Below, piece by piece: positions 8,486 through 63,859 of a stretch of 64,000 bases of DNA (its first letter is position 1; each line of letters starts with the position of its first letter). The notes beneath the pieces were generated by a model. It saw nothing but the letters and a program-made list of their open reading frames with translations. It made no database searches and was not told where the DNA came from. Origin of the DNA: Candidatus Hydrogenedentota bacterium (GTDB lineage Bacteria > Hydrogenedentota > Hydrogenedentia > Hydrogenedentales > CAITNO01); NCBI GenBank assembly GCA_012730045.1, contig JAAYBR010000100.1, positions 34,100-98,099 of the forward strand, written 5' to 3'. Made by a program: the position numbers and the translations under genes.

Positions 8486-8548
8486 GGGGCCGTTTTTTCC
8501 CGAAAGACCTGACAGGGGTGAGGTGTGTCCAAGACACGCGCGCGGAGC

Positions 8549-8701
8549 GCGCCTTGGAGTGCGCAAGCTCGCTTGCGCCTTCCAGACCGGGTTGCCACGG
8601 AATCTGCCAAGGGGCGGCGGAGCCCGGCGTGTCGTGTAAGCGTGCGCGCGGGCAAGCCCGCGCGAAGAAAGGCGGCAGCAAGCTGCCGCAGTCCAAGGCG
8701 C
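8549..8701. repeat. REP-like inverted-repeat doublet (GGAGTGCG family)
   Basis: gcgccttggagtgc at 8549 pairs with gcagtccaaggcgc at 8688 (1 mismatch), with internal hairpins. The segment cgcgggcaagcccgc.cgaagaaaggcggc.gcaagc recurs at about 22101-22138. Confidence 0.75.
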
Positions 8702-8848
8702 TTCGCGCCGCGCGAAGCTACGGTCAGCTCGGTGCCCAGCGGTCTGTTGGCGCGCGGGGTTGTGGGGACGGGAAGCGGGCGGCCCGGTCGAGACGCAGGC
8801 CGTGGTAGACTGTCCGCGTGCCGGGTGTTCTGGCGGGAGGTCATTGGC

Positions 8849-30860: not shown

Positions 30861-30932
30861 GCTTGACTGCCGTGGGATGCCCGCCGCAGAATGGCGGCAC
30901 AAGGGCGCGGACACCACGACAGGAGCAAGCCC

Positions 30933-32138
30933 ATGAGCGGACCATCCATCACCAGACGGGGATTCATGGGCGGCGTGGCCGGGGCGGCGGCGGCGCAGAT
31001 GGTGCGTGCGGCGGCGGCGCAATCCGCCGACACCGGCGCGAAGGTAAAGGCGGGACTCATCGGCGTGGGCGGGCGCGGCAACATGATCGCGCAGCTGGTC
31101 GAGGCCCACGGGGGCTACGAGCTCACAGCAGTGGCGGACTATTTTCCCAAGGTGGCGGAGGAGGCGGGCCGGCAGTTCAACGTGCCGGAGAAGAACCGGT
31201 TCAGCGGGCTGACGGGGTATCAGCGGCTGCTGGAGAGCGGCGTGGAGGCGGTCTTTCTGGAGACGCCGCCCTACTGTTTCCCGGACCATGTCGAGGCGGC
31301 GGTGGCGGCGGGCATCCATGTGTACATGGCGAAGCCCGTGGCGTGCGACGTGCCGGGGTGCCTGCGCGTGGCGGAGGCGGCCAAGCGCGCGAAGGACGCC
31401 GGGCGGTGTTTCCTGATTGACTTCCAGACGCGGACGGACCCCTTCTTCATGGAGGGCGTGGACCGCGTTCACCGGGGGGAGATCGGCCCCCTCGGCCTGG
31501 TCAGCTCCCTCTACACCGACGAGTCGTTCTCCGACCCGCCCCTCACGGACACCGTGGAGAGCCGTCTCCAGCACCTGATCTGGGTGAATGACGACGGTCT
31601 GGGCGGCGGCTATCTCGTGAACGCGGGCATCCACGCCGTGGACGTGGCGCTGTGGCTCGCGGGGGGTGTGCCCGTCAGCGCCGTGGGCGCGTCGCGCATC
31701 GCCCGGAGCGACCCGCACGGCGACTCCCATGACGTCTACTCCGTGACCTATGAATTTGCCGACGGCCTGATCGTGAACCACCGGGGCGAGCACCTGCGAA
31801 ACAAGTTCGACTTCCACTGCGACTGCGTCGCCCACGGGCGCGACGGCTACCTGGAATGCGGCTACTCCAACAGCGTGGCGCTGCATGGAAAACAGGACTG
31901 GCCGGGCGGCAAGGTGGAGGACCTCTACCTCGTCGGCGCGCGCCGCAACATCGCGTCGTTCCACACGGCCATCGTCAGCAAAGACGCGTCCAACCCCACC
32001 GTGGAGCCCAGCATCCACGCGAACCTCGCGGTCATGCTCGGGCGCGAGGCCTGCCTGCGCGGGTCCCGTGTCACCTGGGACGAAATGATCAAGGAGAGCC
32101 GCCGGATCGAGCCCGACCTGCGCGGCCTCAAGGCATAG
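30933..32138 (+). CDS. Tat-exported Gfo/Idh/MocA oxidoreductase
   Basis: TRRGFM Tat motif, GLIGVGGRG, ETPPYCFPDH, HVYMAKPVA. Confidence 0.9.
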   Translation: MSGPSITRRGFMGGVAGAAAAQMVRAAAAQSADTGAKVKAGLIGVGGRGNMIAQLVEAHGGYELTAVADYFPKVAEEAGRQFNVPEKNRFSGLTGYQRLLESGVEAVFLETPPYCFPDHVEAAVAAGIHVYMAKPVACDVPGCLRVAEAAKRAKDAGRCFLIDFQTRTDPFFMEGVDRVHRGEIGPLGLVSSLYTDESFSDPPLTDTVESRLQHLIWVNDDGLGGGYLVNAGIHAVDVALWLAGGVPVSAVGASRIARSDPHGDSHDVYSVTYEFADGLIVNHRGEHLRNKFDFHCDCVAHGRDGYLECGYSNSVALHGKQDWPGGKVEDLYLVGARRNIASFHTAIVSKDASNPTVEPSIHANLAVMLGREACLRGSRVTWDEMIKESRRIEPDLRGLKA

Positions 32139-38948: not shown

Positions 38949-39773
38949 CTACGCGTGCTGTTTCCAGGCGCGCTTGATCCGCTCCACGAGCTTCTCCTGG
39001 TCCCATCCCCAGTACTGGTCGGAGAAGACCTCCACCTCGACAAAGCCGCGGAAGCCCGCCTGCTCCACCCACCCGCGTATCTCGCGGATGTTGATGCAGC
39101 CGTCGCCGGGCATGCCGCGGTCGTTAAGCAGGTCGCGGGTGGGGGTGCGCCAGTCGCAGACGTGGAAGGCGAAGATGCTTTTGCCCGCCCGGGAGATTTC
39201 CGAGCGCAGGAAGGGGTCCCACCAGCAGTGGTAAACGTCCACCGCCACGCCCACCATGGGGCTGTTCAGGGCGAAGACGATGTTGTTCGCCTGCTCCAGC
39301 GTGTTGATGGCGGACCGGGAGTCGGCGTACATGGGATGGAGGGGCTCGATGGCCAGGCGCACCCCGGCGGCTTTGGCGTCGGGCTCAATCGCGTGGATGG
39401 CGTCGAAAATCTGCTGGCGGGCGCGGGGGAGGTCCACCTCGGGGGCCGCGCCGCACACCAGCACGAGCACCGGCGCGCCCAGTTCGGCGGCCTCCTCAAT
39501 GGCGCGGCGGTTCTCGCCCTTGGCCTGTTCGCGCGCCTGGGCGCCCGAGGCCACGAAGAACCCGCCCCGGCACAGGCTGACCACGTTCATTTCGGCGTCG
39601 CGCAGGAGTTTTGCCGCCTTCTTCGCGCCCAGGGGGGCGAGATGCTCCCGCCAGACGGTGATGCCGGGGATGCCGGCGCGGGTGTACCCGTCCACCGCCT
39701 GCTCCAGGGTCCAGGGCTTGGTGGTCATGGTGTGCACACAGAGGCGCGAGAAATCGTTGAACGGTTCGGTCAT
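38949..39773 (-). CDS. sugar phosphate isomerase/epimerase (AP_endonuc_2, IolE-like TIM barrel)
   Basis: SLCRGGFF, LAIEPLHPM, VDVYHCWWD, FHVCDW, GMPGDG.I, VEVEVF. Confidence 0.9.
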   Translation of the reverse strand: MTEPFNDFSRLCVHTMTTKPWTLEQAVDGYTRAGIPGITVWREHLAPLGAKKAAKLLRDAEMNVVSLCRGGFFVASGAQAREQAKGENRRAIEEAAELGAPVLVLVCGAAPEVDLPRARQQIFDAIHAIEPDAKAAGVRLAIEPLHPMYADSRSAINTLEQANNIVFALNSPMVGVAVDVYHCWWDPFLRSEISRAGKSIFAFHVCDWRTPTRDLLNDRGMPGDGCINIREIRGWVEQAGFRGFVEVEVFSDQYWGWDQEKLVERIKRAWKQHA

Positions 39774-39795
39774 AATTCCTCTCTTCCCGGCGGGG

Positions 39796-40944
39796 CTACA
39801 GGGCGGGCACGTCCACCCAGGCCCGGCGCCGCCAGCTTTCATATCCCAGTTCGGCGAACTGCACGCCCTTGGCCCCTTCCAGGAGGTTCCAGGGGAAGGG
39901 TTCATCGGTGTGCAGATGGCGCAGGAAAAGCTCCCACTGCGCCTTGAACGCGTTGTCACAGGGTTCCGTCTCGGGAACGGTCTCCCATCCGTCGAAGAAG
40001 TTGATCGGGCTCGGGATGTCGGGGTTCCAGACGGGCCGCGGGGTGTCGGCGCCCTTCTGGACCCGGCATTCGCGCAGTCCCGCCACTGCCGACCCCTTGT
40101 CGCCGTCCACCTGCACGGTGAGCAGGTCGTCGCGCCGGACCCGCGTGGTCCAGGAGGAGTTGAACTGGCAGACGATCCCGGGTTTCGTGACGGCGGTCAT
40201 GTAGGCGGCGTCCTCGGCGTCGGCTTCATAGGGATGGCCGGCCTCGTCCAGGCGGCGCGGGACGTGGGTGGCCCCGAGACAGCAGACCGAGGCCACGGGG
40301 CCGAAGAGGTTGTCAATCAGGTAGCGCCAGTGGCAGAGCATGTCGGAGATGATGCCGCCGCCCTCGGCCTTTTTGTAGTTCCACGAGGGGCGCTGGGGCT
40401 GGCCGTCCCCGCCGGTGAAGACCCAGTAGCCGAAGTCGGCCTTGACACTGTGCACCTTTCCCAGCGCGCCAGAAGCCATGACCCGGCGGAGTTTGACCAG
40501 GCCGGGGAGCCACAGCTTGTCCTGGACCACGCCGTGGCGCACGCCCCCGGCCTCGGCGGCGTGAAACAGCGCCAAGGCCCCGGTGGCGGTGTCCGCGGAG
40601 GGTTTCTCGCAATAAATGTGCTTTCCCGCGGCGATGGCGGCGGACACCGCCTCCACACGGCGAAGGGTGGTTTGCGCGTCGAAATAGACAGGGTAGTCCG
40701 GGTCGGACAGGCAGGCGTCGAGATCGGTGGACCACGGCAGCCCGCCGTGTTTCTCCGCCAGCGCGCGCAGTTTTTCCTCGTTCCTTCCCACCAGAAGGGG
40801 GGCCGGCAGAATCCTGCGCCCGTCGGGCAGTTCCACCCCCCCGGCGGCGCGGATGGCCATGAGGGAGCGTTCGAGATGCTGGTTCATCCCCATGCGCCCG
40901 GTGACGCCGTTCATGATCACGCCCGTGCGGACAGTCTCAGACAT
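39796..40944 (-). CDS. cytoplasmic Gfo/Idh/MocA oxidoreductase
   Basis: GVIMNGVTGRMG, KHIYCEKP, VVQDKLWLPG, WNYKKAEGGGIISDMLCHW. Confidence 0.92.
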   Translation of the reverse strand: MSETVRTGVIMNGVTGRMGMNQHLERSLMAIRAAGGVELPDGRRILPAPLLVGRNEEKLRALAEKHGGLPWSTDLDACLSDPDYPVYFDAQTTLRRVEAVSAAIAAGKHIYCEKPSADTATGALALFHAAEAGGVRHGVVQDKLWLPGLVKLRRVMASGALGKVHSVKADFGYWVFTGGDGQPQRPSWNYKKAEGGGIISDMLCHWRYLIDNLFGPVASVCCLGATHVPRRLDEAGHPYEADAEDAAYMTAVTKPGIVCQFNSSWTTRVRRDDLLTVQVDGDKGSAVAGLRECRVQKGADTPRPVWNPDIPSPINFFDGWETVPETEPCDNAFKAQWELFLRHLHTDEPFPWNLLEGAKGVQFAELGYESWRRRAWVDVPAL

Positions 40945-40977
40945 TGCAGCCTCCTTTGCGGGATGGGTTCGCAGCCC

Positions 40978-50608: not shown

Positions 50609-53600
50609 CTACTCCAGTCCGGAAATCCGCGCGATATGGTCCTTGCTGCCGTCGTTGGCCCAGGCGTCGAGCTGGTCGGGGGCCTTGAGCTGCTGGCCGC
50701 GCATGCGGGGCACGGCGATGTAGCCGCAGCCCTTTCCGGCGGGCACGAGGGCGGTCATGTCGCTCCAGAGCTTCTCGCACTGGGCGACGGGGTACACGTC
50801 CTCCTGCCCGTGGCCCCAGCGGCGTTTGACCTCCTTGATGGTGACATAGGTGGGCATGAGGCGTGCCACATCGCGCACGGCGCCGGCGATGCGCTCCTCC
50901 GGGCCGTCCAGGTCGGCTCGCGTCAGGCCGAAGAGCGCCAGCAGCGGGTCAATCTGGATCCAGGTGGTCATGCTGTTGTAGAAGCTCAGGCGGAGTTCGT
51001 CCTCCTCGCGGGGCTGGGCGAGGCCCTCCAGCAGGCGGACCCTGCCGTTGACCCGGGCGAGGCCGCCGCCCCGGTCGTCCATGCGGCGCGGCACCACCTC
51101 GAAGCTGAGGGTGTTGCCGCTTTCGAGGTGGGCGCCGAGGGCCCCGGGGTCGAGGTCCGCGCCGAGGGTGTCAATGTTGTGCAGCATGATCGTCTCAAGC
51201 TGCGGACGCTCGCGGAGCAGTCCGGCGAGCACGCCGTTGCGCAGGAGGTTTGCCGCCTCGTACCAGTGGCCCGGCGGGTTGAAGCGCTGGACGGGCACGT
51301 TGTCCGTGTAGTCCGTGCCCTCGCCCTTTTCGCGGGCCCAGCCCATGAGCGTGCTCCGAACCGCGTCGCGCACCTTCTGCTTCTGCTCGTCGAGGGTCTC
51401 CTGCGGCATGGTCTCCCACAGGAAGACCAGGTCGCGGACCATGGGCACAAAGCGCTGGCCGATGGACCGGCCCGGGGAGAGCACGACGGGGCCGCCGTAG
51501 CCGTAGTGGCCGTTCAGCCTCAGGTGCTTTTCAATGGCCCCATGGGTGAGGTAGCTCGTGGAGACGATGTGCGGCGGCGGGGCGCCGAAGAGTTCCGCCG
51601 TCCGCCTTGTTTTGGCAACATGGATTTCCAGGAAGCTTCGGTGGCGGCTGCCGAGCTGCACAAAGGGGTTGACCGCCTTGATGACCCCCGCGCCGGTGGT
51701 CCACCGGCTGCCCACGCCCGCCGCGAGGCTCATCACGGCGACGCGCCCCTCCCGCAGGGCGGCCTCGCCGGTTTTCCGGCGTCCGGCGTCGCCCGTGAGG
51801 CGGAGGACGTCCCCCTCCTCCACATTCTCGATCCGCGTGTCCACGGGCAGGCGGTTGTGCGCCAGGCCGATGCGGCCGTGCTGGAGGTCGGCGCGCATCT
51901 GCCCGTGCTGGATCTCGTCGAAGCCGTTCTCCGCCTTGACGCGCGCGGCCTCGGCGTCCCATTCGGCGCGCTCGCTCCCCGCCGCCGCGCCGGAGACGTT
52001 GAACAGTCCGGCAACCATGCGGCGCAGGAGGCGCTGCGACTCGCCGGGGACGTCGCCCCGCGCGGTGAAGCGGTCCAGCTCCACGCGGCGCAGGCGGGAG
52101 GACTCCTCGGCGCTGCGCCGGATCAGCTCGGGGATCTGGAGTCCGTAGTAGCGCCCGGGAAGGAGGGCCGCGTCGCCCGTCAGAAGCCGCGCGGTCGTGC
52201 CGTCGCGGTTGATGTCGAAGGTGTAGACCACGGGGTCCATGGCGAAGGCGAGGGCGTCCTCCAGCTCGGCCTTGGTCTCGCGCATGATCCGCAGGATCCC
52301 GTCGCGGAAGGCGGCGCAGCGCTCCGGCGCGACGAACATGGCCATGCCGCCGCCGGACATGCCGCCGAGCATGAGGAAGCCCCAGAAGTCGTCCCCCAGC
52401 GCCTCGCCCGCGCGGCGGATGATCGTCTCCGTGAACCGGTTGGTCACCCAGGGGATGATCGTCTTGAGCGGGCCGTTCCAGTTCCGCGTGGTGCATTGCG
52501 CGAGCCCGCGGATGTCGCCGCCGCGCAGGGCCGCGCGGATGCCGTCGAAGATCTCCGCCGTGTCCCCGCGCGCGCGCCACTCCGCCTCGCCGCGCAGGAG
52601 GTATTTCTCCGTCACCATCTCCAGGATGGGGCCGACGTTCTGCGCCATGCCGCCGTGGATCAGGACCAGCGACGCCGCCATCCGCTCCGCAATCTCCGGG
52701 TGCAGGTCGCCCGCGCCGAGGATGCGGTGGCGCGGCAGGAGCCGCCCGCGGCTCACGCCGTATTCGGGGTCGCCCTCCACCGCCTCGGCCCCCTCGATCA
52801 CCTTGAAGCCCGGCCAGGTGCCGCCGGAGTCCTGCCAGCCGCCGCCGGAGCCGCCCAGCCACTCGCCGAGGATGGCCCGCGACGCCACGAGGCGCCGCTC
52901 CTCCTCCGGCAGGCTGCCCTCCAGGCTTCCGGTCTGGCCCGTGGCCCGCATGAGCGCGCTGATGATGGACACCAGCATGTTCGTGGACACGGCCAGCCGC
53001 GAGCCCTTGGGGATGTCGTTGACCCGGGTGACCAGCTCGACGCCCATGCCCGGCCCCACCACCCGCTCCATCACCCGCGCCAGGGGCTGGTGCGTGCCCT
53101 CCAGTGACGGCGGCACGAGGCCCGACGCGATCACGCCCGCCTTCAGCAGGCTCAGGTAGTCGTTTCCGAAGTTGAACAGGTCGCGCAGCTCCGTGACGTC
53201 CTTCGTCGCCTCCAGGTCCACGCTGGTCAGCCGCAGCAGCGGCTCGGGGATCACGCGGACATACGCCGCGATGGGCGGGCGCACGGCGTCGTCGCGCCCG
53301 TGGACCCCGAGGTCCACGGAGATGTTCAGCACCCGCGCGCCCTCGGGATAGTCCATCCCCAGGAAGAAGATGTCCGACCACCCGCTGTGGCTCAGGTCCA
53401 GCCGCACCGGCGTCGTCTCCATGAGCACGGGGAAAAGTCCCCCGTCGCCGCGCCGCATCAGTTCCGGCCGGATGCGGACCGGGTGGTCGTCGGCGTGGCC
53501 CACGCGGAACATCCACTGGTTGCCCCGGCTGGCGCGGACGCTCCGCCGGACCTGGTCGCTCAGGGTCTGGAACGCGAGCTGGTGGTAGGCCTGCGCCAGC

Positions 53601-53953
53601 GCGCTGGACAGCGCCCCGTTCGGCCCGTCCCGGCGCATCGCCGCCGTGAAGGCGCTCACCGCCTCCTCAAAGCGCCGCGAGAGCAGGGCGTCGAAGCCCT
53701 CCGGCGGAATCGCGCCCAACGACGGGAAGGCCGGGGATTCCTGGAGGAAGAAGCGGTGCGCCGCGTGGAGGAAGAGCGCCGCGCGCACGCGCTCGTACAG
53801 GTTGTCCGACGCGCGGCGGAAGCGGTCCAGCTCGTCGCACGCCGCCAGCAGGGCCTCCGGGGACAGACCCGCGCACAGCGAGCGGAAAGACCGGTCGCGC
53901 AGGGCCGGATCCCGGCTCGTGATCGTCTCGATGAAGGGGTTCGTGCCGCTCAT
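50609..53953 (-). CDS. bifunctional GHMP-family sugar kinase / UDP-sugar pyrophosphorylase (UDPGP-family) fusion
   Basis: Kinase motifs PVRLDLSHSGWSD, IPKGSRLAVST, GGSGGGWQD, LGGMSGGG. C-terminal motifs LAAGVGSRW, NPPGHW, HNIDTLGA, EVVPR. Confidence 0.8.
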   Translation of the reverse strand: MSGTNPFIETITSRDPALRDRSFRSLCAGLSPEALLAACDELDRFRRASDNLYERVRAALFLHAAHRFFLQESPAFPSLGAIPPEGFDALLSRRFEEAVSAFTAAMRRDGPNGALSSALAQAYHQLAFQTLSDQVRRSVRASRGNQWMFRVGHADDHPVRIRPELMRRGDGGLFPVLMETTPVRLDLSHSGWSDIFFLGMDYPEGARVLNISVDLGVHGRDDAVRPPIAAYVRVIPEPLLRLTSVDLEATKDVTELRDLFNFGNDYLSLLKAGVIASGLVPPSLEGTHQPLARVMERVVGPGMGVELVTRVNDIPKGSRLAVSTNMLVSIISALMRATGQTGSLEGSLPEEERRLVASRAILGEWLGGSGGGWQDSGGTWPGFKVIEGAEAVEGDPEYGVSRGRLLPRHRILGAGDLHPEIAERMAASLVLIHGGMAQNVGPILEMVTEKYLLRGEAEWRARGDTAEIFDGIRAALRGGDIRGLAQCTTRNWNGPLKTIIPWVTNRFTETIIRRAGEALGDDFWGFLMLGGMSGGGMAMFVAPERCAAFRDGILRIMRETKAELEDALAFAMDPVVYTFDINRDGTTARLLTGDAALLPGRYYGLQIPELIRRSAEESSRLRRVELDRFTARGDVPGESQRLLRRMVAGLFNVSGAAAGSERAEWDAEAARVKAENGFDEIQHGQMRADLQHGRIGLAHNRLPVDTRIENVEEGDVLRLTGDAGRRKTGEAALREGRVAVMSLAAGVGSRWTTGAGVIKAVNPFVQLGSRHRSFLEIHVAKTRRTAELFGAPPPHIVSTSYLTHGAIEKHLRLNGHYGYGGPVVLSPGRSIGQRFVPMVRDLVFLWETMPQETLDEQKQKVRDAVRSTLMGWAREKGEGTDYTDNVPVQRFNPPGHWYEAANLLRNGVLAGLLRERPQLETIMLHNIDTLGADLDPGALGAHLESGNTLSFEVVPRRMDDRGGGLARVNGRVRLLEGLAQPREEDELRLSFYNSMTTWIQIDPLLALFGLTRADLDGPEERIAGAVRDVARLMPTYVTIKEVKRRWGHGQEDVYPVAQCEKLWSDMTALVPAGKGCGYIAVPRMRGQQLKAPDQLDAWANDGSKDHIARISGLE

Positions 53954-54912
53954 GCCGACGCCGGCCCCCCGGGCCGGTCCGTCTCGGCCAGCAGCTCGAT
54001 GATCGCGCGGAGCACGCCGTCGCGGTCCGTGCCCGCCGCGCCCAGGGCGATCTGCGCCTGCATCAGCCCGAACTTCGCGCTGATGTCGTATCGGATGCCC
54101 GACACCTCCAGCGCCAGGCAGCGCTCGCGGTTGGCGAGCTCCTGGAGCGCCGGGGTCAATTGCAGCTCCGCGTCGCCGCGCGCCGCCAGCCCCTCGCCCA
54201 GAATGTCAAAGATGCGGTGCGGCAGCGCGTGCATCCCGAAGAAGCAGAGGTAGTGGGCCGTGCGCAGCCCCGGCGTCTGGAGCTGCAGCTCCGCCTGGCT
54301 CACCGACGGCTTCTCCAGGATCCGCTCGACCTGGTAGACCCCGTCCAGGTCCGGCATCCGCCGTCCGCTCACCGTGCCGTAGCGCCCCACATGCCGCTCG
54401 TGGGTGGACTGCACCGCCGACACCGCCGCGTCCTCCTGCTCCGCCAGCCGGATCACCTGCTCCGCGCAGCGCCGGTCCCGCAGCGCCGAGATGTAGAGAT
54501 GGTCGTCCAGCAGCAGCAGGAACGACTCCCTGCCCACAAAATCCCGGGCGCACCACACCGCGTGGCCGTAGCCCAGCGGCTCCTCCTGCACGGCGAAGGA
54601 CAGCCGGGGGATCAGGTCCTCCAGCCGCGCCGCCTGTTCGCAGGCCCAGCCCGCGCCCCCGCACGCGCCCCGCAGGTTCTCCCGCAGCAGCCGGAGCTGG
54701 CGCAGGTACTGCTCCTCGTCCCCCGGCGCGCAGACAATGCACACCTCCTCGATGCCGCTGCGGATCGCCTCCTCCGCGATGATCTGGACCAGCGGCTTCG
54801 CCAGCCCGTCGCGGTCCACCAGCGGAAGCATCGCCTTCTGCACCGTGTCCGCCACCGGATACAGCCGCGCCCCGCGCCCCGCCGCCGTGATCACTGCCTT
54901 GCGTATCTTCAA
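53950..54912 (-). CDS. GalU-like sugar-phosphate nucleotidyltransferase
   Basis: KAVITAAGRGARLYP...QKAMLPL, QEEPLGYGHAV, LEKPS, LQLTPAL. TTG start; ATGA overlap with the fusion gene. Confidence 0.88.
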   Translation of the reverse strand: MKIRKAVITAAGRGARLYPVADTVQKAMLPLVDRDGLAKPLVQIIAEEAIRSGIEEVCIVCAPGDEEQYLRQLRLLRENLRGACGGAGWACEQAARLEDLIPRLSFAVQEEPLGYGHAVWCARDFVGRESFLLLLDDHLYISALRDRRCAEQVIRLAEQEDAAVSAVQSTHERHVGRYGTVSGRRMPDLDGVYQVERILEKPSVSQAELQLQTPGLRTAHYLCFFGMHALPHRIFDILGEGLAARGDAELQLTPALQELANRERCLALEVSGIRYDISAKFGLMQAQIALGAAGTDRDGVLRAIIELLAETDRPGGPASA

Positions 54913-55017: not shown

Positions 55018-56541
55018 TCAAGGAGCGGCCGCCCCGCAGCGCACCTCGAAAACGTGCTCCGTGCCCACATCACTCCGGATGCGCAGGGTGTCGCCCTCCC
55101 GCGTGACCTCCGTCCACTCCTGTCCGTCCCGCAGGACCGTTGCCGGACCGGTGATCTTCTCGCACCGCAGTTCCGTCTTCCCCGAAAAGGACGGGTTCCC
55201 TTTCAGGACCACGAAACGGAGCACCGGCGCCCGGTATTCGGCGGCGCGCACGTAGATGTTTGGATAGTCCACCCCGGCAAGGGTCGGCGCGGCCAGAATC
55301 TCCGTGCGCGGTGTCCGGTAGAGGGTGCGCATGGAGTCGCCGTCGGTGGCCAGGGCCGCCGCGATGAGCCCCGTGGCCGATATGTAGTGTTTCGGGCACA
55401 CGTTGTAGTAATACGACTCGTTGCGGCCGTCGCCGTCCGTGTCCAGCGGCTTGCCGTAGGTTGCCTCCAGCCAGTTCAGCACCTCCCGCGCCCGGGGCGA
55501 GTCCTTCCCCTCCGCCTGCACGCCCGCCAGGGGGAGGAAGCTGTTGGCCACGCTCAGCGACCCGCCGCCGCAGCAGCCGATCACCTTGTTGTTCACGGCG
55601 TAGGCCCGGCCCTTTTCCGGGGTGACCCACTTGGCCTTCTTGCAGATGTGTTTCCAGCCCTCCTTGAGAAACCCGGGGTCCGGGAACCAGGGATAGCCCC
55701 AGCCGAGGGCCCAGCAGTCCGCGCCGACATCCCCCACCGGATAGAAGACCTCCTTCTTTTGGTCGTAGATGACGTAGAGGAACTCGCGGGTCAGGGGAAC
55801 CTTGTTGCGGAAATGGACCCGCATCCAGTCAAACCACCGGGGGTTAGCGTCGGCATACCGCGTGCCGTGGAGCAGGTCGAACAGCAGGAAAGAGTTTGCG
55901 CTGTGGGAGTTGCAGTCGGCGAAGACCAGCCCCGGCTCGCAGCAGATGCCGCCCGAGGGGCTGGCGAGGCTCTGGTCACGCAGCCCGCGCACGGCCTTTT
56001 CCAGGGTGTAGTGCGTCTTCCGGCCGTCCTCGGCAACGAAATCCCACCCCTCTTCGGAGTAGCGCATGTCGCCCGTCATCAGCTCATAGAGGCACATCAG
56101 CTGCGTGAGGTGCCCCGTGTACATGACGTTCTCGTAGCGGCAGGGGTCGGGCGGGTCGTCCCCGTAGTCCCAGTAGTGGGTGACATAGCACCAGGTCCGG
56201 CGGTCCACCATCCGCTCGCAGAGATCGCCGAGCTGGCGGGCTATCAGGTCGCGGTAGGCGGGCGTCCGCGCCGCCATGGCAACGCACCCGTACCCGCCAA
56301 AGGCAAACTGGTACCGGAACGCCGTGACATCCAGCTGCTTGCCGTCGTCATACCAGCCGATCCACGGATCCGCTTTATGGCCCTGCATGTGCGTGAGATG
56401 GGAGAACCACCGCTGGATGGCCAGCTCCCGGTCCGAAAGGCCCTCCCCCCATGCGGGCTCGTCGGCGGACGCTGGTCCGGACAGCAGGGAAAGGCCGCAC
56501 GCCAGACAGAACCACGCAAGACACCGCATACGCATGCCCAA
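55018..56541 (-). CDS. secreted linalool dehydratase/isomerase (LinD/Ldi)-family protein
   Basis: Signal peptide; RYQFAF..Y, DPCRYENVMYTGHL..LM.LYELMTGD.RY, GICCEPGLVFADCNS, DLLHGTRY align with recalled LinD motifs. Confidence 0.78.
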   Translation of the reverse strand: MGMRMRCLAWFCLACGLSLLSGPASADEPAWGEGLSDRELAIQRWFSHLTHMQGHKADPWIGWYDDGKQLDVTAFRYQFAFGGYGCVAMAARTPAYRDLIARQLGDLCERMVDRRTWCYVTHYWDYGDDPPDPCRYENVMYTGHLTQLMCLYELMTGDMRYSEEGWDFVAEDGRKTHYTLEKAVRGLRDQSLASPSGGICCEPGLVFADCNSHSANSFLLFDLLHGTRYADANPRWFDWMRVHFRNKVPLTREFLYVIYDQKKEVFYPVGDVGADCWALGWGYPWFPDPGFLKEGWKHICKKAKWVTPEKGRAYAVNNKVIGCCGGGSLSVANSFLPLAGVQAEGKDSPRAREVLNWLEATYGKPLDTDGDGRNESYYYNVCPKHYISATGLIAAALATDGDSMRTLYRTPRTEILAAPTLAGVDYPNIYVRAAEYRAPVLRFVVLKGNPSFSGKTELRCEKITGPATVLRDGQEWTEVTREGDTLRIRSDVGTEHVFEVRCGAAAP

Positions 56542-56790
56542 GCCTCCTTGCAGGGCGCCCGCGCACGGGCGTCCCGTCTCTAGAAAACCGCCGAGGCGGG
56601 GATAAGGGCGCTTTTCGACGCCCTCCCGCCACCCCCCCCCACTTTAGCAGGTCGCGCGCGGGACATCAACGCGCCGGGGCGCGAGGTTGACGCCCCCGGG
56701 CCTGTTCTGTTTCAATGCATGGGCGGCGTGTTTCGGCGGGATGGCCGCGCCGGCGCGTGCCGGGGCTGAACAGGGCGCGGAGGGCAGCGC

Positions 56791-58397
56791 ATGGCGGCGG
56801 GCGGGTTGAATCCCTTTGACATGGCGGTTATCGCGGTGTACCTCGCGGGCATTGTGGCGCTGGGGTGCTGGGCGGGGCTGCGCAAACGCAAGGGGGCGGC
56901 GGGGGACGGCTATTTTCTGGCGGGGCGCAGCCTGGGGTGGCCGGTGATCGGCATGGCGCTCTTCGCCACCAACATCTCGACCATCCATCTGGTGAGCCTC
57001 GCGCAGGAGGGCTACACGAACGGCCTGGCCTACGGGAATTTCGAGTGGATGGCGGGGTTCACGCTGATCCTCCTCGCCCTCTTCTTCGCCCCGTTCTATG
57101 TGCGGTCGCGGGTGGCCACACTGCCCGACTTCCTGGAGCGGCGCTACAGCCGCGCCAGCCGCGGCTGGCTTTCCCTCATTTCCATCGTGGCGGCCATCTC
57201 ATCCACATCGGTTTCTCCATCTACGCGGGGGCGGTGGTGCTTGAGGGGCTGTTTGGCATCAACAAGACGGCCAGCATCATCGCCGTCGCCCTGCTCACGG
57301 GGGCGTACACCATTGTCGGCGGCCTGATGGCCGTGGTGGTCACGGAGACAGTGCAGACGGTGATCCTCCTGCTCGGCGCCGTGGCGATGACGGTCAGCGC
57401 GTGGAATGCCCTGGGCGGCTGGGGAAACCTGACCGCCGCCGTGGACCCGGTGCAGCTCACCATGCTGCGCCCGGCGGGCGACCCGTCGGGCCTGCCGTGG
57501 TATGCCGTGTTTCTGGGCTATCCGGTCATTGGTATCTGGTACTGGTGCACGGACCAGACGATCGTGCAGCGCGTGCTGGGGGCGAAGGACGAGCACAACG
57601 CGCGGATGGGCGCGCTGTTTGCCGGATTCATCAAGATTCTGCCCGTGTTCATTTTCGTGCTCCCCGGCCTGATGTGCGCGGCCCTGGTCAGGACGGGGCG
57701 GGTGGAGGGCGCGCCGGAGAACTCCGAGCAGGTCTATGCGTTCATGATCGGGGCGCTCATGCCCGCCGGGCTGCGCGGGCTGCTTGCCGCGGCGCTGCTC
57801 GCCGCGCTGATGAGCACCGTTTCGGCGGCCCTGAACTCCGCCGCCACGCTTTTCACCCACGACCTGTACCGGCGTTTTCGTCCCGACGCGGACGACCGGC
57901 GGCTCGTCCGGGTGGGGCGGATCGTCACGTTTGCGGGCATGGTGCTGGCCGTCCTGTGGTCGCCCTTTCTGGGGCGGTACCCCACGGTCTTTCAGGGGGT
58001 GAACGCCGCCATCAGCTACATCGCGCCGCCCATCACGGTCGTGTTCCTGTTCGGCGTGTTCTGGCGGCGGGCCTCGTCGCGGGCGGCCATTGCCACGCTG
58101 GTCACGGGCTCCGCCGCCGGATTCGCCGTGTTTCTGCTGGACTGGTTCAGGGAGTTCACGGGCTGGAATGTGCCCTTCATGATGGCGGGGTTCTACCTGG
58201 CCGTCCTGTGCTCCGCCGTGATGGTTCCCGTGTCCTGGCTCTTTCCCGATCCGCCCAGCGCGGAGCGGGACGCCCTGGTGTGGTCCAGCCCGCTGGCCGC
58301 GTTCCGGGGCGCGACCGGCAGGGGGCTGGCGGACTACCGGGTCGTCGCGGGGCTCCTTTTCGGCATAATGGTCGCGCTGTATGTGGTGTTTGCCTGA
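56791..58397 (+). pseudogene. sodium:solute symporter (SSS) with a single-base frameshift at about 57199
   Basis: The N-part (YFLAGRSLGW..IG..LFATNIS..FLERRY) and the C-part (WYWCTDQTIVQRVL, AALMST..AALNS) are in different frames. The junction ATC TC ATC CAC restores to IFIH with one added T. Confidence 0.8.
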
Positions 58398-58854: not shown

Positions 58855-58891
58855 ACCCGCCGCGTTCGCGCGCGGCACAGGAGGATGATCC

Positions 58892-60187
58892 ATGGAGATG
58901 AACCGCCGCTCGTTTGTGAAGACCGCCGTGGCCGGAACCGCGGCGGGAATGTTCGCCGTGGACGCCCTCGGGGCCAATGAGCGGGTGCGCCTCGGCGTGC
59001 TCGGCACGGGCAACCGGGGCGGCCAGCTCATTGACATGATTCTGAAGCACCCGAACGCCGAGATTGTGGCGCTGTGCGATGTCTACCATCCGCATCTGGA
59101 CAAGGCCCGTGCGCGGCTGGATGGCAGGCCCGACGTGTTCACGGACTACCGGAAGCTGCTGGAGCGGAAGGATATAGACGCGGTCTTTGTGGCGACGCCC
59201 GACCATTGGCACGCCCTCCAGTGCGTGGACGCCTGCGAGGCGGGTAAGGATGTCTACGTCGAGAAGCCCCTGTCCGTCACCATCCACGAGGGGCGGCGCA
59301 TGGTCGAGGCCGCGCGCCGGACGAACCGGGTGGTCCAGGTCGGTGTGCAGCGCCGGTCCAGCCTCATGTATGCCGACCTGGCGCAGAAGGTGAAGGACGG
59401 GCTGATCGGCAAGGTGACCGTCGCCCGGACCTACCGCCTGTCCAACATGTGGCCCGCCGGCATGGGGAAGGGACAGGACGCCGACCCGCCCGCGGACCTC
59501 AACTGGGACCTGTGGCTCGGGCCCCGGCCCCTGCGCCCCTTCCGCGACACCATCGCCCCCTACAAGTTCCGTTGGTGGGGCGCCTACTCCTCCCAGATCG
59601 CCAACTGGGGCATTCACTTCATTGACTCCCTCCGCTGGATGCTCGGCGAGGAGGCCCCCGACGCCGTTGTGTCCCTTGGCGGCCGCTTCGCCGTGGACGA
59701 CGACCGCGACATCCCGGACACCATGGAGACGACCTTTCAGCTCCCCGGCGGCTGCCTGCTGATCTTCGGCCAGTACGAGGCCAACCAGAACAACCCGCTC
59801 AAGCGCGGGCATTTCGAGCTGCGCGGCACCAACGGCACCCTCTACATCGAGGACGGCGGCTACGAGATCGTGCCGGAGAAGGGCGGCCAGTTCCAGGACC
59901 CGAAGCCGCGCATGGAGGCCGTCACGCAGAAGAACCCGCTGGACCCCGCCGGGGACTTCACCATCGCCCACATCGGGAACTTCCTCGACTGCATAAAGAC
60001 CCGCGCGCTGCCCCTCGCCGATGTGGAGGTCGGCCACCGCTCCACCACCTTCTCCCACCTCGGGAACATCGCCCTCGCCACCGAGTCCCTCCTCAAGTGG
60101 GACGCGAAGGCGGAGCGGGTCACCAACAACGAGGCGGCCAACGGGCTGCTTCATTACGAATACCGCGAGCCGTGGAAACTGGGGTGA
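58892..60187 (+). CDS. Tat-exported Gfo/Idh/MocA oxidoreductase
   Basis: NRRSFVK, GVLGTGNRG, ATPDHWHA, DVYVEKP, LNWDLWLGP, NWGIHFID. Confidence 0.93.
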   Translation: MEMNRRSFVKTAVAGTAAGMFAVDALGANERVRLGVLGTGNRGGQLIDMILKHPNAEIVALCDVYHPHLDKARARLDGRPDVFTDYRKLLERKDIDAVFVATPDHWHALQCVDACEAGKDVYVEKPLSVTIHEGRRMVEAARRTNRVVQVGVQRRSSLMYADLAQKVKDGLIGKVTVARTYRLSNMWPAGMGKGQDADPPADLNWDLWLGPRPLRPFRDTIAPYKFRWWGAYSSQIANWGIHFIDSLRWMLGEEAPDAVVSLGGRFAVDDDRDIPDTMETTFQLPGGCLLIFGQYEANQNNPLKRGHFELRGTNGTLYIEDGGYEIVPEKGGQFQDPKPRMEAVTQKNPLDPAGDFTIAHIGNFLDCIKTRALPLADVEVGHRSTTFSHLGNIALATESLLKWDAKAERVTNNEAANGLLHYEYREPWKLG

Positions 60188-62330: not shown

Positions 62331-62539
62331 TGTTGGAAAGCCTCAGGTTCTCCGCATGTCACGGGGTGAATGGACACCTTTGCGCCCCGTCGGCGCTTTC
62401 ACCATGAACCCACAAGACGCACGCCCCTCCAGTGCTTTCACGGCCCGGTGCTTGTCCGGCGATCAGGCGCTTTCTTCTTGCTTTTCGGGTTTCGTTTGTT
62501 GAGAATGGTGCTTTCCCCTTTCACTGAAGGAGCCCAACC

Positions 62540-63859
62540 ATGGCAGAGAAACGTCTTCTTTCACGCAGGTCCTTTCTGAAGCGCTCGTCGCTGGCGCTGG
62601 CCCCGGCGGTTTTCCCCGCCATCATCCCCGGCTCCGCGCTGGGGCTGAACGGGGCGGTGGCGCCGAGCAACCGCATCGTCATGGCGTCCATCGGCGTGGG
62701 CGGCCAGGGGTCGTATGACACCAAGGCCCTCATGAGCATCCCGGACGTGCAGTACGCGGCGGTGTGCGACGTGGACCGCAAGCACTGCGCGGCGGCGCGG
62801 GAGATGGTGTCGTCGTTCTACGCGGACAAGAGCCCCGACGGGAAGTTCGACGGCATCCAGGAGCACCACGACTTCCGCGAGGTGATGGCGCGGGATGACA
62901 TTGACGCCGTCATGATCGCGACGCCGGACTTCTGGCACCCCATCGTCAGCGTGGCGGCGGCCGAGGCGGGCAAGGACATCTACTGCGAGAAGCCGCTGGC
63001 GAACTCGATCCCCGAGGGCCGCGCGGTGGTGGACGCGGTGCGGCGGTACCGGCGGGTGTTCCAGACGGGCAGCCACGAGCGCAGCCGCGACAACGCGCGC
63101 TACGCCTGCGAGCTGGTGCGCAACGGCCGCATCGGCAAGCTGCACACGATCTCGGTGAACCTGCCGATTGACAACCACGGCCCCATCGGCAACCAGCCGG
63201 AGATGCCGGTGCCGGAGGAGCTGGACTACAACTTCTGGCTCGGCCCGGCGCGCGAGGCGCCCTACACGGAGAAGCGCTGCCACTTTTACTTCCGCTACAT
63301 CATGGACTACAGCGGCGGCGAGATGACGGACCGGGGCGCGCACATCATTGACCTCGGCCAGCTCGGCAACGGCTCCGACGACACGACCCCCGTCACCGTC
63401 GAGGGCAAAGGCTGGTTCCCAGAGGACGGCCTGTTCAACACGGCGATGGACTACACCTTTCAGTTCGAGTACGCGAACGGCGTGGTGATGAAGGGCGCGT
63501 GCAAGGGTCCGCGCGGCGTCCGCTTCGAGGGCAGCGACGGCTGGGTGTTCATCCATGTCCACGGCGGCAACCTGGAGGCGTCGAACCCGGCGCTGCTCAA
63601 GGAGGTCATCGGGCCGGAGGAGCTCCAGCTCGGCCGCAGCAAGGGCCACCATGTGGACTTCATCGAGTGCGTGAAGACCCGCGGCGAGGCGAAGGCCCCC
63701 GTGGAGGTCGGCCACCACACGGCGACCATGTGCCACATGGCGAACATCGCCATGAAGGTGGGCCGCAAGCTGCGCTGGGACCCCGTCAAGGAGCAGTTCG
63801 ACGACGACACGGCGAACCGCATGATGCACCCCTCCATCCGCGCCCCGTGGCGCATCTGA
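62540..63859 (+). CDS. Tat-exported Gfo/Idh/MocA oxidoreductase
   Basis: SRRSFLK, SIGVGGQG, ATPDFWH, DIYCEKP, LDYNFWLGPA, DRGAHIID. Confidence 0.93.
   Translation: MAEKRLLSRRSFLKRSSLALAPAVFPAIIPGSALGLNGAVAPSNRIVMASIGVGGQGSYDTKALMSIPDVQYAAVCDVDRKHCAAAREMVSSFYADKSPDGKFDGIQEHHDFREVMARDDIDAVMIATPDFWHPIVSVAAAEAGKDIYCEKPLANSIPEGRAVVDAVRRYRRVFQTGSHERSRDNARYACELVRNGRIGKLHTISVNLPIDNHGPIGNQPEMPVPEELDYNFWLGPAREAPYTEKRCHFYFRYIMDYSGGEMTDRGAHIIDLGQLGNGSDDTTPVTVEGKGWFPEDGLFNTAMDYTFQFEYANGVVMKGACKGPRGVRFEGSDGWVFIHVHGGNLEASNPALLKEVIGPEELQLGRSKGHHVDFIECVKTRGEAKAPVEVGHHTATMCHMANIAMKVGRKLRWDPVKEQFDDDTANRMMHPSIRAPWRI

What the first reader, a model, noticed from the sequence alone, without database searches (positions are those of the whole stretch)
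55018..56541. Secreted linalool dehydratase/isomerase homologue with both catalytic cysteines, outside any terpene-degradation context
Seen: ENVMYTGHL..LM.LYELMTGD.RY and CEPGLVFADCNS (the ICCEPGLVFADC cysteines span 55912-55944), a Sec signal, a DTDGDG Ca-loop and a C-terminal beta extension (YPNIYVRAAEY). Known (recalled): Castellaniella LinD has ENIMYKGHL...LYQLVTG.RRY and CEPDNYFVQCN, with Cys171 and Cys180 catalytic and Met125 in the active site. Inference: this is a cofactor-free alkene hydratase/dehydratase of a poorly sampled family. Its neighbours are nucleotide-sugar genes and a sugar symporter rather than geraniol-pathway genes, so the natural substrate may not be a monoterpene. It is also of biocatalytic interest.
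Basis: partly seen in the sequence, partly recalled or inferred. Interest (0 to 1): 0.72.

Follow-up and report, generated by a model that had tools for sequence, protein, structure and literature searches.

The report
Exported LinD-like barrel enzyme, substrate unknown
This gene encodes an exported relative of the bacterial enzyme linalool dehydratase/isomerase that keeps the residues that enzyme uses to add or remove water at a carbon-carbon double bond, but it belongs to an uncharacterised branch found in wastewater and sediment bacteria with no sign of terpene metabolism, so what it acts on is unknown.

Summary
Window 55018-56541 (-) is an intact ORF. The likely start is ATG 56535, giving 505 aa. 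It has a Sec-type leader and matches Pfam PF18566 (Ldi) at 110 bits against a cutoff of 26. Its AlphaFold model (pLDDT 92) matches only LinD crystal structures strongly (TM 0.80). LinD C171, C180, H129, M125 and E172 all align to invariant residues. No terpene-catabolism gene lies in the 64-kb window or beside nine homologues.

New points:
- The protein belongs to a tight ~500-aa clade in Hydrogenedentota and Planctomycetota. All members are named "hypothetical".
- The clade sits in a small superfamily of 828 clusters at 50% identity.
- The Cys/Cys/His core marks the whole superfamily, not this gene alone.
- LinD is the atypical member. Its N-terminal arm (Asp39', Tyr45, Cys49) cannot be aligned, and its lid Cys102 is Asp113 here. 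His213 and Asp275 are near-universal in the superfamily but are Val and Thr in LinD.
- The nucleotide-sugar and symporter neighbours are conserved only within the genus, so they say nothing about the substrate.

Most likely it is a cofactor-free acid/base hydratase, dehydratase or isomerase acting on an unknown alkene or allylic alcohol. I rate it a new variant of a known kind, of moderate interest.

The parts
55018..56535 (-). Coding sequence of the LinD-superfamily protein: 505 aa from ATG 56535. The mechanical ORF starts at TTG 56541 and gives 507 aa. Residue numbers in this report use the 507-aa numbering.
   Evidence: ORF. Pfam PF18566 at 110 bits. Start codon argument from the Shine-Dalgarno spacing and the MRMR start of homologue P0001.
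56543..56549 (-). Shine-Dalgarno sequence AAGGAGG, 7 nt upstream of ATG 56535.
   Evidence: Read directly from the sequence.
56464..56535 (-). Sec-type signal peptide MRMRCLAWFCLACGLSLLSGPASA, with a predicted A-S-A|D cleavage site.
   Evidence: Translation. Hydrophobic 10-mer score 2.36. 68 of 70 close homologues have such a leader. Modelled as a low-confidence N-terminal helix. Cleavage is an inference.
55291..56433 (-). (alpha/alpha)6-barrel catalytic domain, residues about 37-417.
   Evidence: AF2 model with pLDDT 92 and pTM 0.90. Foldseek ranks 1-27 are all LinD, with TM 0.80 normalised to LinD and rmsd about 3.7 A.
56395..56439 (-). Conserved N-terminal helix LSDRELAIQRWFSHL (residues 35-49). 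It takes the place of LinD's unalignable N-terminal arm.
   Evidence: R44, F46 and S47 are invariant. The helix is matched in nearly all distant representatives but at 0 of 35 positions in LinD. hhalign starts only at residue 73.
56107..56130 (-). NVMYTGHL motif. Met140 corresponds to LinD M125 and His144 to LinD H129.
   Evidence: N138 is kept in 134/134, M140 in 121/136 and H144 in 121/136 superfamily representatives.
55909..55947 (-). ICCEPGLVFADCN motif. Cys201 corresponds to LinD C171, Glu202 to E172, Phe207 to F177 and Cys210 to C180. His213 follows three residues after Cys210.
   Evidence: C201 is kept in 128/134 and C210 in 120/128 representatives. H213 is kept in 82/128 representatives, where LinD has Val.
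55711..55734 (-). GDVGADCW motif. Asp275 is invariant here and present in 90/105 representatives, where LinD has Thr. Trp277 corresponds to LinD W243 (5hlr numbering).
   Evidence: The motif lies in the first turn of helix 272-282 of the model.
55426..55443 (-). DTDGDG, a DxDxDG loop in a beta-hairpin. It is a candidate Ca2+ site and is absent from LinD.
   Evidence: Translation. In the close subfamily D367 is kept in 73/74, D369 in 68/74, D371 in 73/74 and G372 in 71/74. LinD has a gap there. Metal binding is an inference from the motif.
55036..55284 (-). C-terminal nine-stranded beta-sandwich domain, residues about 420-502, absent from LinD.
   Evidence: AF2 of the domain alone gives pLDDT 92.5. 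It has only weak structural matches, including the accessory beta-domains of GH51, GH30, GH5 and GH13 enzymes. It is present in 29 of about 122 non-fragment representatives.

Best explanation
The gene encodes an exported, cofactor-independent (alpha/alpha)6-barrel enzyme of the LinD/Lis superfamily (PF18566).

Shown here:
- Membership by HMM and by predicted fold.
- A Sec-type leader.
- Strict conservation of the residues that do acid/base catalysis in LinD: Cys201 and Cys210 (LinD C171, C180), His144 (H129), Met140 (M125), Glu202 and Asn138. The aromatic pocket residues Tyr77, Phe81, Tyr84, Trp117, Phe207 and Trp277 are also kept.

Inferred:
- It performs the same type of chemistry as LinD. 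That means proton-driven addition or elimination of water, or a 1,3-hydroxyl shift, at a C=C bond or allylic alcohol, with the reduced thiols and the histidine acting as acid/base.
- It works in the periplasm or outside the cell of an anaerobe.
- It is built differently from LinD. LinD's N-terminal arm, which supplies Asp39' in trans and Tyr45, and its Cys49-Cys102 lid are replaced by another conserved helix and by Asp113.
- Two polar residues that are near-universal in the superfamily but missing in LinD, His213 and Asp275, sit in the first turns of barrel helices next to the catalytic residues. They probably supply the general acid in cis.
- A DxDxDG loop and a C-terminal beta-sandwich are added.

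The physiological substrate is unknown and is probably not linalool or myrcene. The conserved hydrophobic pocket favours an alkenyl or isoprenoid-like moiety.
For: - Family and fold: Pfam Ldi at 110 bits. PDB LinD E=1e-20 to 1e-28. hhalign probability 99.65 over 260 columns. AF2 pLDDT 92. Foldseek gives LinD only at E about 1e-14 and TM 0.80, with the next fold family at E about 1e-5 and TM 0.2-0.5.
- Catalytic and pocket residues are invariant in 74 close homologues and kept in about 90% of 149 distant cluster representatives.
- Published LinD active-site set: H128, Y44, D38, C170, C179, and cysteine mutants are inactive (PMC12455561, PMC6600392).
- Leader peptides in 68 of 70 close homologues.
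- The gene is intact and identical in independent runs.
- No terpene genes in the window or in nine other neighbourhoods.
Against: - No activity data exist for any member of this clade.
- Only two superfamily members, LinD and Thauera Lis, are characterised, and both are distant. LinD is about 23% identical and scores 102 bits against the clade profile.
- Asp39' and Tyr45, two of the five published LinD active-site residues, and the lid disulfide are not recognisably conserved.
- The oligomeric state could not be examined, and LinD's active site lies at a subunit interface.
- I had no model coordinates. The placement of His213 and Asp275 on the catalytic face rests only on sequence position and the secondary-structure string.
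- The taxa are glycan degraders, and carbohydrate-active genes are often nearby.
Confidence: 0.55

Rival explanations
1. It is a carbohydrate-active enzyme. One option is a hydratase for unsaturated (enol-ether) sugars made by polysaccharide lyases, as in GH88 and GH105. Another is a cysteine-dependent glycosidase, as in GH127. Either would use the LinD-like barrel on a glycan-derived substrate.
For: - The clade lives in Planctomycetota and Hydrogenedentota. Distant relatives live in Kiritimatiellia, Lentisphaeria and Verrucomicrobia, many from rumen and other gut samples, which I know as glycan degraders.
- GH127, GH2, GH116, GH106, GH172, GH123, BNR, CE15, CE7 or sulfatase genes lie within 8 kb in 7 of 9 surveyed neighbourhoods.
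- Second-tier fold matches are GH127, GH76, GH88 and GH105.
- The C-terminal beta-sandwich resembles the accessory domains of glycoside hydrolases.
- Extra polar residues Asp113, His213 and Asp275 replace apolar ones in LinD.
Against: - No HMM match to any GH or PL family, even at E<=1.
- Fold similarity to GHs is only at the generic barrel level: TM 0.2-0.55, E of 1e-4 to 1e-5, against 1e-14 for LinD.
- No neighbour is conserved, and these genomes are dense in carbohydrate-active genes anyway, so proximity is weak evidence.
- The hydrophobic and aromatic LinD pocket residues are conserved.
- The only GH fusion, P0081, lacks the catalytic core and its GH43 match is below the Pfam threshold.
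Confidence: 0.2
2. It is a true functional equivalent of LinD or Lis, acting on environmental monoterpenes (myrcene, linalool, geraniol) as a stand-alone periplasmic enzyme.
For: - Same superfamily, same catalytic Cys/Cys/His/Met, and exported like LinD.
- The Thauera lis gene is also isolated from its neighbours (PMC4791888).
- LinD itself accepts a range of alpha-methyl allyl alcohols up to C13 (PMC12455561).
Against: - Only about 23% identity to LinD.
- More than 150 other cluster representatives are closer to this clade than LinD is.
- The N-terminal arm and the lid disulfide differ.
- No geraniol or geranial dehydrogenase and no acyclic-terpene-utilisation genes in 64 kb or in nine other loci.
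- To my knowledge the host phyla are not known monoterpene degraders.
Confidence: 0.1
3. It is a non-catalytic binding or structural protein that merely retains the fold.
For: No activity has been shown. A beta-sandwich domain could mediate binding.
Against: The catalytic residues are invariant across 74 close homologues and kept in about 90% of distant clusters, which indicates purifying selection on chemistry.
Confidence: 0.03

Closest known systems
Linalool dehydratase/isomerase LinD (Ldi) of Castellaniella defragrans 65Phen (PDB 5g1u, 5hlr, 5i3t; Pfam PF18566)
   Same: - (alpha/alpha)6 barrel, TM 0.80.
- Catalytic Cys171, Cys180, His129, Met125, Glu172 and Asn123, and most aromatic pocket residues.
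- Sec leader and export.
- No cofactor-binding motif.
   Different: - About 23% identity.
- LinD's first 60 residues (Asp39', Tyr45, Cys49) cannot be aligned.
- Lid Cys102 is Asp113 here.
- Val182 is His213, Thr241 is Asp275 and Met251 is Trp285 (LinD positions in 5hlr numbering).
- A DxDxDG loop and a roughly 85-residue C-terminal beta-sandwich are added.
- No geoA/geoB-type context.
- Host phylum is Hydrogenedentota, not Betaproteobacteria.
Linalool isomerase Lis of Thauera linaloolentis 47Lol (PMC4791888)
   Same: - A distant Ldi-like domain.
- The gene stands alone, apart from pathway genes.
- The enzyme needs a reductant.
   Different: - Lis is 644 aa with four N-terminal transmembrane helices, no signal peptide and a predicted cytosolic domain.
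- The window protein is a soluble exported form.
- The Lis-like membrane-anchored architecture appears in the distant Kiritimatiellia and Lentisphaeria relatives, not in this clade.
Unsaturated glucuronyl/galacturonyl hydrolases GH88 and GH105 (e.g. PDB 3wiw, 4wu0)
   Same: (alpha/alpha)6 barrel. From my own knowledge, their chemistry is also acid-catalysed hydration of a C=C bond. They fit the ecology of glycan-degrading hosts.
   Different: Only generic fold similarity (E about 2e-4, TM 0.41-0.55). No HMM match. No Cys/Cys/His apparatus.
GH127/GH146 beta-L-arabinofuranosidases (HypBA1, PDB 3wre)
   Same: A barrel followed by beta-sandwich domain(s). From my own knowledge they use a cysteine in catalysis.
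   Different: Poor superposition (TM 0.2-0.3, rmsd above 17 A). No HMM match. The Cys motifs are unrelated.

Membership tests
LinD/Ldi superfamily (Pfam PF18566) | Match to the Ldi profile HMM above the gathering threshold | tested here: met
   110.4 bits against a cutoff of 26.1, E=1.6e-31, residues 76-320 on profile positions 1-256 of 318.
LinD/Ldi superfamily (Pfam PF18566) | (alpha/alpha)6-barrel fold superposable on LinD | tested here: met
   AF2 pLDDT 92. Foldseek ranks 1-27 are all LinD chains, E about 6e-15, TM 0.80 normalised to LinD, rmsd 3.3-4.2 A.
LinD/Ldi superfamily (Pfam PF18566) | Catalytic cysteine pair (LinD C171/C180) in the G-I-x-C-E-P-x3-F-x2-C-N motif | tested here: met
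   Cys201 and Cys210 align without gaps. They are invariant in 74 close homologues and kept in 128/134 and 120/128 distant representatives.
LinD/Ldi superfamily (Pfam PF18566) | His129 and Met125 in the E-N-[IV]-M-Y-x-G-H-L motif | tested here: met
   ENVMYTGHL at residues 137-145. His144 and Met140 are invariant in the clade.
LinD-type enzyme (functional equivalent of Castellaniella LinD) | N-terminal arm supplying Asp39' (in trans) and Tyr45 to the active site | tested here: inconclusive
   phmmer, hmmsearch and hhalign all start at LinD residue about 61. LinD matches 0 of 35 positions of the clade's N-terminal helix. An ungapped extension would put Thr50 and Lys56 at those positions, but that is a weak inference.
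LinD-type enzyme (functional equivalent of Castellaniella LinD) | Cys49-Cys102 disulfide capping the substrate channel (essential in LinD, PMC6600392) | tested here: not met
   LinD Cys102 (C101 in 5hlr numbering) aligns with Asp113, which is invariant in 74 close homologues. The Cys49 region cannot be aligned.
LinD-type enzyme (functional equivalent of Castellaniella LinD) | Sec-dependent export to the periplasm | tested here: met
   The leader is MRMRCLAWFCLACGLSLLSGPASA|DE, and 68 of 70 close homologues have a hydrophobic leader. This is a prediction only.
LinD-type enzyme (functional equivalent of Castellaniella LinD) | Homopentamer with the active site at a subunit interface | not testable with these tools
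   Only monomer prediction was available, and no coordinates were returned.
LinD-type enzyme (functional equivalent of Castellaniella LinD) | Genomic or physiological link to monoterpene catabolism (geraniol and geranial dehydrogenases, acyclic terpene utilisation) | tested here: not met
   No such Pfam families among the 35 larger ORFs scanned across the 64-kb window or in nine homologue neighbourhoods.
LinD-type enzyme (functional equivalent of Castellaniella LinD) | Turnover of myrcene, (S)-linalool or geraniol | not testable with these tools
   This needs an enzyme assay.
Lis-type membrane-anchored linalool isomerase | N-terminal multi-pass membrane anchor, no signal peptide (PMC4791888) | tested here: not met
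   Only a single cleavable-type leader is present, and there is no further hydrophobic segment before the barrel.
GH88/GH105/GH127 glycoside hydrolases | Profile-HMM match and family catalytic motifs | tested here: not met
   Ldi is the only Pfam hit at E<=1. Structural similarity is at the generic barrel level only.

The most novel reading that the evidence does not exclude
PF18566 may not be a 'terpene enzyme family' at all. It may be mainly a family of exported or membrane-anchored Cys/His/Asp hydratases in PVC-group and Hydrogenedentota bacteria. These would act on a common non-monoterpene substrate, such as a glycan-derived enol ether (unsaturated sugar) or a lipid vinyl ether or polyprenyl head group. 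The lipid option is hinted at by fusions of the Ldi domain to YhhN domains, which from my own knowledge form the lysoplasmalogenase family. On this reading LinD is a late, atypical offshoot that lost His213 and Asp275 and recruited an Asp in trans from a neighbouring subunit. The window protein would then represent the ancestral, cis-complete active site and a new enzyme activity.
Probability: 0.2. Interest if true: 0.7.

Novelty: new variant of a known kind. Interest (0 to 1): 0.45.

Why it matters
LinD is one of very few enzymes that hydrate unactivated alkenes without a cofactor. It has been described as nearly alone in sequence space (PMC6600392).

This work shows a coherent, uncharacterised clade with more than 70 clusters at 90% identity. 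It keeps the full Cys/Cys/His/Met/Glu core but has a different lid, extra conserved acid/base residues, a putative Ca2+ loop and an added beta-sandwich. That gives biocatalysis a set of natural variants with probably different substrate scope.

It also reframes LinD as the outlier of its own superfamily, so the ancestral function of PF18566 becomes a directly testable question.

For genome annotation, "linalool dehydratase" should not be transferred to these proteins. "Ldi-family protein, substrate unknown" is what the evidence supports.

Tried and rejected
- Neighbour conservation. tblastn of 15 window proteins against 58 homologue loci found the NTP-transferase, the UDPGP-like giant protein and GT4 only in two near-identical Hydrogenedentota contigs. 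The symporter and RhaM were found next to no orthologue. I rejected the sugar-neighbour argument.
- De novo clustering of all six-frame ORFs across loci. Apart from alternate frames of the Ldi gene itself, no partner recurs. GFO/IDH/MocA, GH2 and aconitase appear sporadically.
- NCBIfam gave no meaningful hit.
- Promoter and terminator scans gave nothing above the shuffled background.
- Profile and hhalign alignment of LinD's N-terminal arm failed. Alignments start at LinD residue about 61.
- P0081 as a Rosetta-stone GH43 fusion was rejected. It lacks about 105 residues of the catalytic core, the GH43 score of 31.9 is below the 32.2 cutoff, and it is a single 2.4-kb contig.
- The C-terminal domain fold search gave no match at E<=0.001, so it cannot be assigned to a carbohydrate-binding module family.
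- The weak phmmer hits of the C-terminal domain to hapalindole cyclases (E=0.17) were not followed up, as they are not significant.
- Literature searches found no paper on PF18566 outside LinD and Lis, and none linking it to PVC or Hydrogenedentota bacteria.
Full report
**1. The observation**

Window 55018-56541 (minus strand) is a 507-codon ORF. The mechanical start is a TTG. However, a perfect AAGGAGG lies at 56543-56549, 7 nt before ATG 56535, and the 89%-identical homologue P0001 begins MRMR. The real product is therefore most likely 505 aa starting at 56535. I keep the 507-aa numbering throughout.

- CCEPGLVFADC translates from 55912-55944.
- NVMYTGHL translates from 56107-56130.
- DTDGDG translates from 55426-55443.
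- The leader is MRMRCLAWFCLACGLSLLSGPASA, followed by DE.

The gene is identical, or differs by one upstream base, in contigs from independent bioreactor and wastewater runs. It is therefore neither an assembly artefact nor a pseudogene.

**2. Family and fold**

Pfam gives one hit, PF18566 (Ldi), at E=1.6e-31 and 110 bits against a cutoff of 26. Nothing else appears at E<=1. NCBIfam has no model for it.

Against PDB sequences, only LinD chains match. The E-value is about 1e-20 with the single sequence and 1e-28 with the family profile. hhalign gives probability 99.65 over 260 columns.

An AlphaFold2 model built on 33 homologues is confident, with pLDDT 92 and pTM 0.90. It shows a helical barrel at residues about 37-417 and an all-beta domain at about 420-502. 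In the Foldseek search against the PDB, ranks 1-27 are all LinD chains, with E about 6e-15, TM 0.80 normalised to LinD, and rmsd 3.3-4.2 A for most of these chains. The next fold families are far weaker, at E>=1e-5 and TM 0.2-0.55. They are GH127/GH146, GH76, GH88 and GH105.

**3. Active-site comparison**

I verified the LinD sequence I used against PDB chain 5hlr_A, and it matches at every one of its 371 residues. The published active-site set is H128, Y44, D38, C170 and C179 in 5hlr numbering, which is +1 in 5g1u numbering (PMC12455561). The C48-C101 disulfide caps the cavity, and all four cysteines are essential (PMC6600392).

The profile alignment maps LinD residues (5hlr numbering) to the window protein as follows:

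| LinD | Window protein |
|---|---|
| C170 | C201 |
| E171 | E202 |
| F176 | F207 |
| C179 | C210 |
| N180 | N211 |
| N122 | N138 |
| M124 | M140 |
| Y125 | Y141 |
| H128 | H144 |
| Y65 | Y77 |
| F69 | F81 |
| Y72 | Y84 |
| W105 | W117 |
| W243 | W277 |

All of these are invariant in 74 close homologues.

Three things differ.
- LinD's first ~60 residues, which carry D38, Y44 and C48, cannot be aligned by any method. In their place the clade has its own conserved helix, LSDRELAIQRWFS. Nearly all distant relatives share this helix, but LinD matches it at 0 of 35 positions.
- LinD C101 aligns with the invariant Asp113, so the lid disulfide is not conserved.
- Several positions that are apolar in LinD are conserved polar residues here: V182 becomes His213, T241 becomes Asp275 and A183 becomes Ser214.

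His213 lies in the first turn of helix 211-225, three residues after Cys210. Asp275 lies in the first turn of helix 272-282, two residues before Trp277. Both are therefore predicted to lie on the catalytic face. I could not check this in 3D because no coordinates are returned.

**4. The wider family**

A word-indexed search found 95 relatives. About 74 of them are full-length proteins of roughly 500 aa at 51-89% identity. Every one that carries a name is called "hypothetical protein", and all but one carry a precomputed PF18566 hit.

In one-genome-per-species contigs, the closest are Candidatus Hydrogenedentota (76-89% identity). Next come Planctomycetota at 55-69%, including Pirellulaceae, Planctomycetaceae, Phycisphaerae and Anammoximicrobium. 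Relatives at 30-40% occur in Kiritimatiellia, Lentisphaeria, Victivallales and Verrucomicrobia, many of them from rumen and other gut samples.

An exhaustive HMMER scan of 1.84 billion cluster representatives finds only 828 clusters at E<=1e-3, and 131 at E<=1e-30. The superfamily is therefore small.

Across 149 distant representatives the core is retained:

| Residue | Kept in |
|---|---|
| C201 | 128/134 |
| C210 | 120/128 |
| H144 | 121/136 |
| M140 | 121/136 |
| E202 | 126/133 |
| N138 | 134/134 |
| D275 | 90/105 |
| H213 | 82/128 |

The two cysteines are thus the signature of the superfamily, not a special feature of this gene. LinD, with Val and Thr at the last two positions, is the atypical member. 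LinD scores 102 bits against the clade profile, below the 150th-best representative at 117 bits.

Architectures fall into three groups:
- exported forms with the C-terminal beta-sandwich, like this one (29 representatives);
- exported or soluble forms without it;
- forms with 5-8 N-terminal transmembrane segments (23 representatives), some recognisable as YhhN or DUF998.

The last group recalls the four-helix membrane anchor of Thauera linalool isomerase (PMC4791888). All fused forms keep the Cys/Cys/His/Met/Glu core plus His213 and Asp275.

**5. Added parts**

The DxDxDG loop is almost invariant in the clade. D367 is kept in 73/74, D369 in 68/74, D371 in 73/74 and G372 in 71/74. LinD has a gap there. 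It sits in a beta-hairpin of the model. Ca2+ binding is an inference from the motif.

The C-terminal domain, modelled alone, is a confident nine-stranded beta-sandwich with pLDDT 92.5. It has no PDB match at E<=0.001. The best is a phage tail domain (E=1.6e-3, TMq 0.72). After that come the accessory beta-domains of GH51, GH30, GH5 and GH13 enzymes at E of 0.03-0.1. It is a generic appendage, and I cannot assign it to a carbohydrate-binding family.

Six cysteines are conserved only in this clade: Cys86, 108, 134, 323, 324 and 460. As this is an exported protein, they probably form structural disulfides. I could not pair them.

**6. Genomic context**

On the same strand, downstream, lie:
- an NTP-transferase (53950-54912);
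- a 1198-aa protein with a UDPGP segment;
- a GT4 glycosyltransferase;
- asparagine synthase and GlnE.

Divergently upstream lie an SSS symporter, a RhaM-like mutarotase and TAT-signal GFO/IDH/MocA oxidoreductases.

The rest of the window holds housekeeping genes: SHMT, citrate synthase, the hrcA-grpE-dnaK-dnaJ cluster and ClpP. It also holds a sulfatase, peptidases, more GFO/IDH/MocA genes and a xylose-isomerase-like TIM barrel. There is no terpene-catabolic gene.

The nucleotide-sugar genes recur only in two near-identical Hydrogenedentota contigs. The symporter and mutarotase recur next to no other homologue. Six-frame clustering of 58 loci finds no conserved partner.

Nine annotated neighbourhoods are all different. 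Seven have at least one carbohydrate-active gene within 8 kb (GH127, GH2, GH116, GH106, GH172 with GH123 and BNR, BNR with CE15, CE7 with sulfatase). These genomes are rich in such genes, so I treat this as weak evidence. The gene behaves as a stand-alone unit.

**7. Mechanism, committed**

Most likely (0.55) this is an exported, cofactor-free acid/base enzyme that adds or removes water, or shifts a hydroxyl, at a C=C bond or allylic alcohol. It would use reduced Cys201 and Cys210 with His144, as in LinD. The general acid would be supplied in cis by Asp275 and His213, rather than in trans from a neighbouring subunit. Asp113 and the N-terminal helix would replace the disulfide lid.

The fold, the residue conservation and the leader peptide are shown. 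The chemistry, the cis-acid idea, Ca2+ binding and export are inferred.

The conserved aromatic and hydrophobic pocket argues for an alkenyl or isoprenoid-like moiety. The extra polar residues and the ecology leave room for a carbohydrate-derived substrate (rival, 0.2). A genuine monoterpene enzyme (0.1) and a non-catalytic protein (0.03) are less likely.

**8. Comparison and novelty**

The protein is a member of the PF18566 superfamily, and all superfamily-defining features tested are met. It should not be filed as a LinD-type enzyme. The lid disulfide was tested and not met. The N-terminal arm was inconclusive. The terpene context was not met. Oligomeric state and activity could not be tested.

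No paper in the searchable library mentions PF18566 members beyond LinD and Lis.

I rate it a new variant of a known kind, with interest 0.45. It is useful for biocatalysis and for asking what the LinD superfamily originally did. It is not surprising in kind, and the Pfam assignment already exists for every homologue.

Noticed in passing
window 56791-58397 (+), break at about 57198-57207: The divergently transcribed Na+/solute symporter (Pfam SSF) is split into two frames by a 1-nt deletion (GCCATC-TCATC). A related strain in run X4 has an extra T after 57198 that restores ...AAIFIHIG.... Two same-strain runs from different studies (X1, X2) share the deletion. It is therefore probably a genuine strain-level frameshift and pseudogene, not an assembly error.
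   Followed up: partly
proteins P0082, P0095 (YhhN), P0087, P0088 (DUF998), and P0083, P0084, P0086, P0093, P0115, P0120, P0127, P0128; e.g. locus L066 1411-3735: Distant PF18566 members, found in ENA, JGI and Logan metagenome assemblies, fuse the Ldi domain to 5-8 N-terminal transmembrane segments. Two of them match YhhN above the Pfam threshold; from my own knowledge that is the lysoplasmalogenase family, which cleaves vinyl ethers. All keep the Cys/Cys/His/Met/Glu core plus His213 and Asp275. This is a possible hint that lipids are the substrates of that branch.
   Followed up: partly
superfamily-wide; LinD positions C101, V182, T241 (5hlr numbering): LinD, the founding member of PF18566, is atypical for its own family. 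It lacks the His and Asp that about 65-85% of cluster representatives carry next to the catalytic cysteines, and its N-terminal arm matches none of the family's conserved N-terminal helix.
   Followed up: yes
window 50609-54205 (-): A protein of about 1198 aa whose only Pfam hit is a short UDPGP (UTP-glucose-1-phosphate uridylyltransferase) segment near its C-terminus. Its stop-to-stop frame overlaps the upstream NTP-transferase ORF by about 250 nt. It is conserved at 94-96% identity in the two sister contigs L001 and L020. Its function is unknown.
   Followed up: no
window 30867-32138, 39796-40977, 58889-60187, 62528-63859 (plus 38949-40196 and 8522-10306): Four GFO/IDH/MocA oxidoreductase genes in 64 kb, at least one with a TAT signal, together with a xylose-isomerase-like TIM-barrel protein and a sulfatase. 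From my own knowledge this is typical of sugar-oxidising glycan catabolism in PVC-like genomes.
   Followed up: no
window 56630-56660 (intergenic, upstream of the Ldi gene): A G-rich run (GTGGGGGGGGGTGGCGGGAGGG on the minus strand) lies in the 250-bp divergent intergenic region between the Ldi gene and the symporter. No sigma-70-like promoter was found there.
   Followed up: no
protein P0081 / locus L068 11-1861: An aberrant homologue that lacks about 105 residues of the catalytic core (it jumps from ...VWDYVT to RYADANAKWF...). It reads through its stop into a 300-aa extension with a sub-threshold GH43 match. It is a single 2.4-kb metagenome contig, so it is probably a degraded or chimeric copy.
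   Followed up: yes
loci L061 7045-7800 and L063 7137-7721: In two Planctomycetota-type contigs a class-3 O-methyltransferase (Pfam Methyltransf_3) is divergently transcribed directly upstream of the Ldi homologue. A PNP_UDP_1 phosphorylase-family gene sits directly upstream in L060 and about 5.7 kb upstream in L065. These are too few cases to call a conserved association.
   Followed up: no
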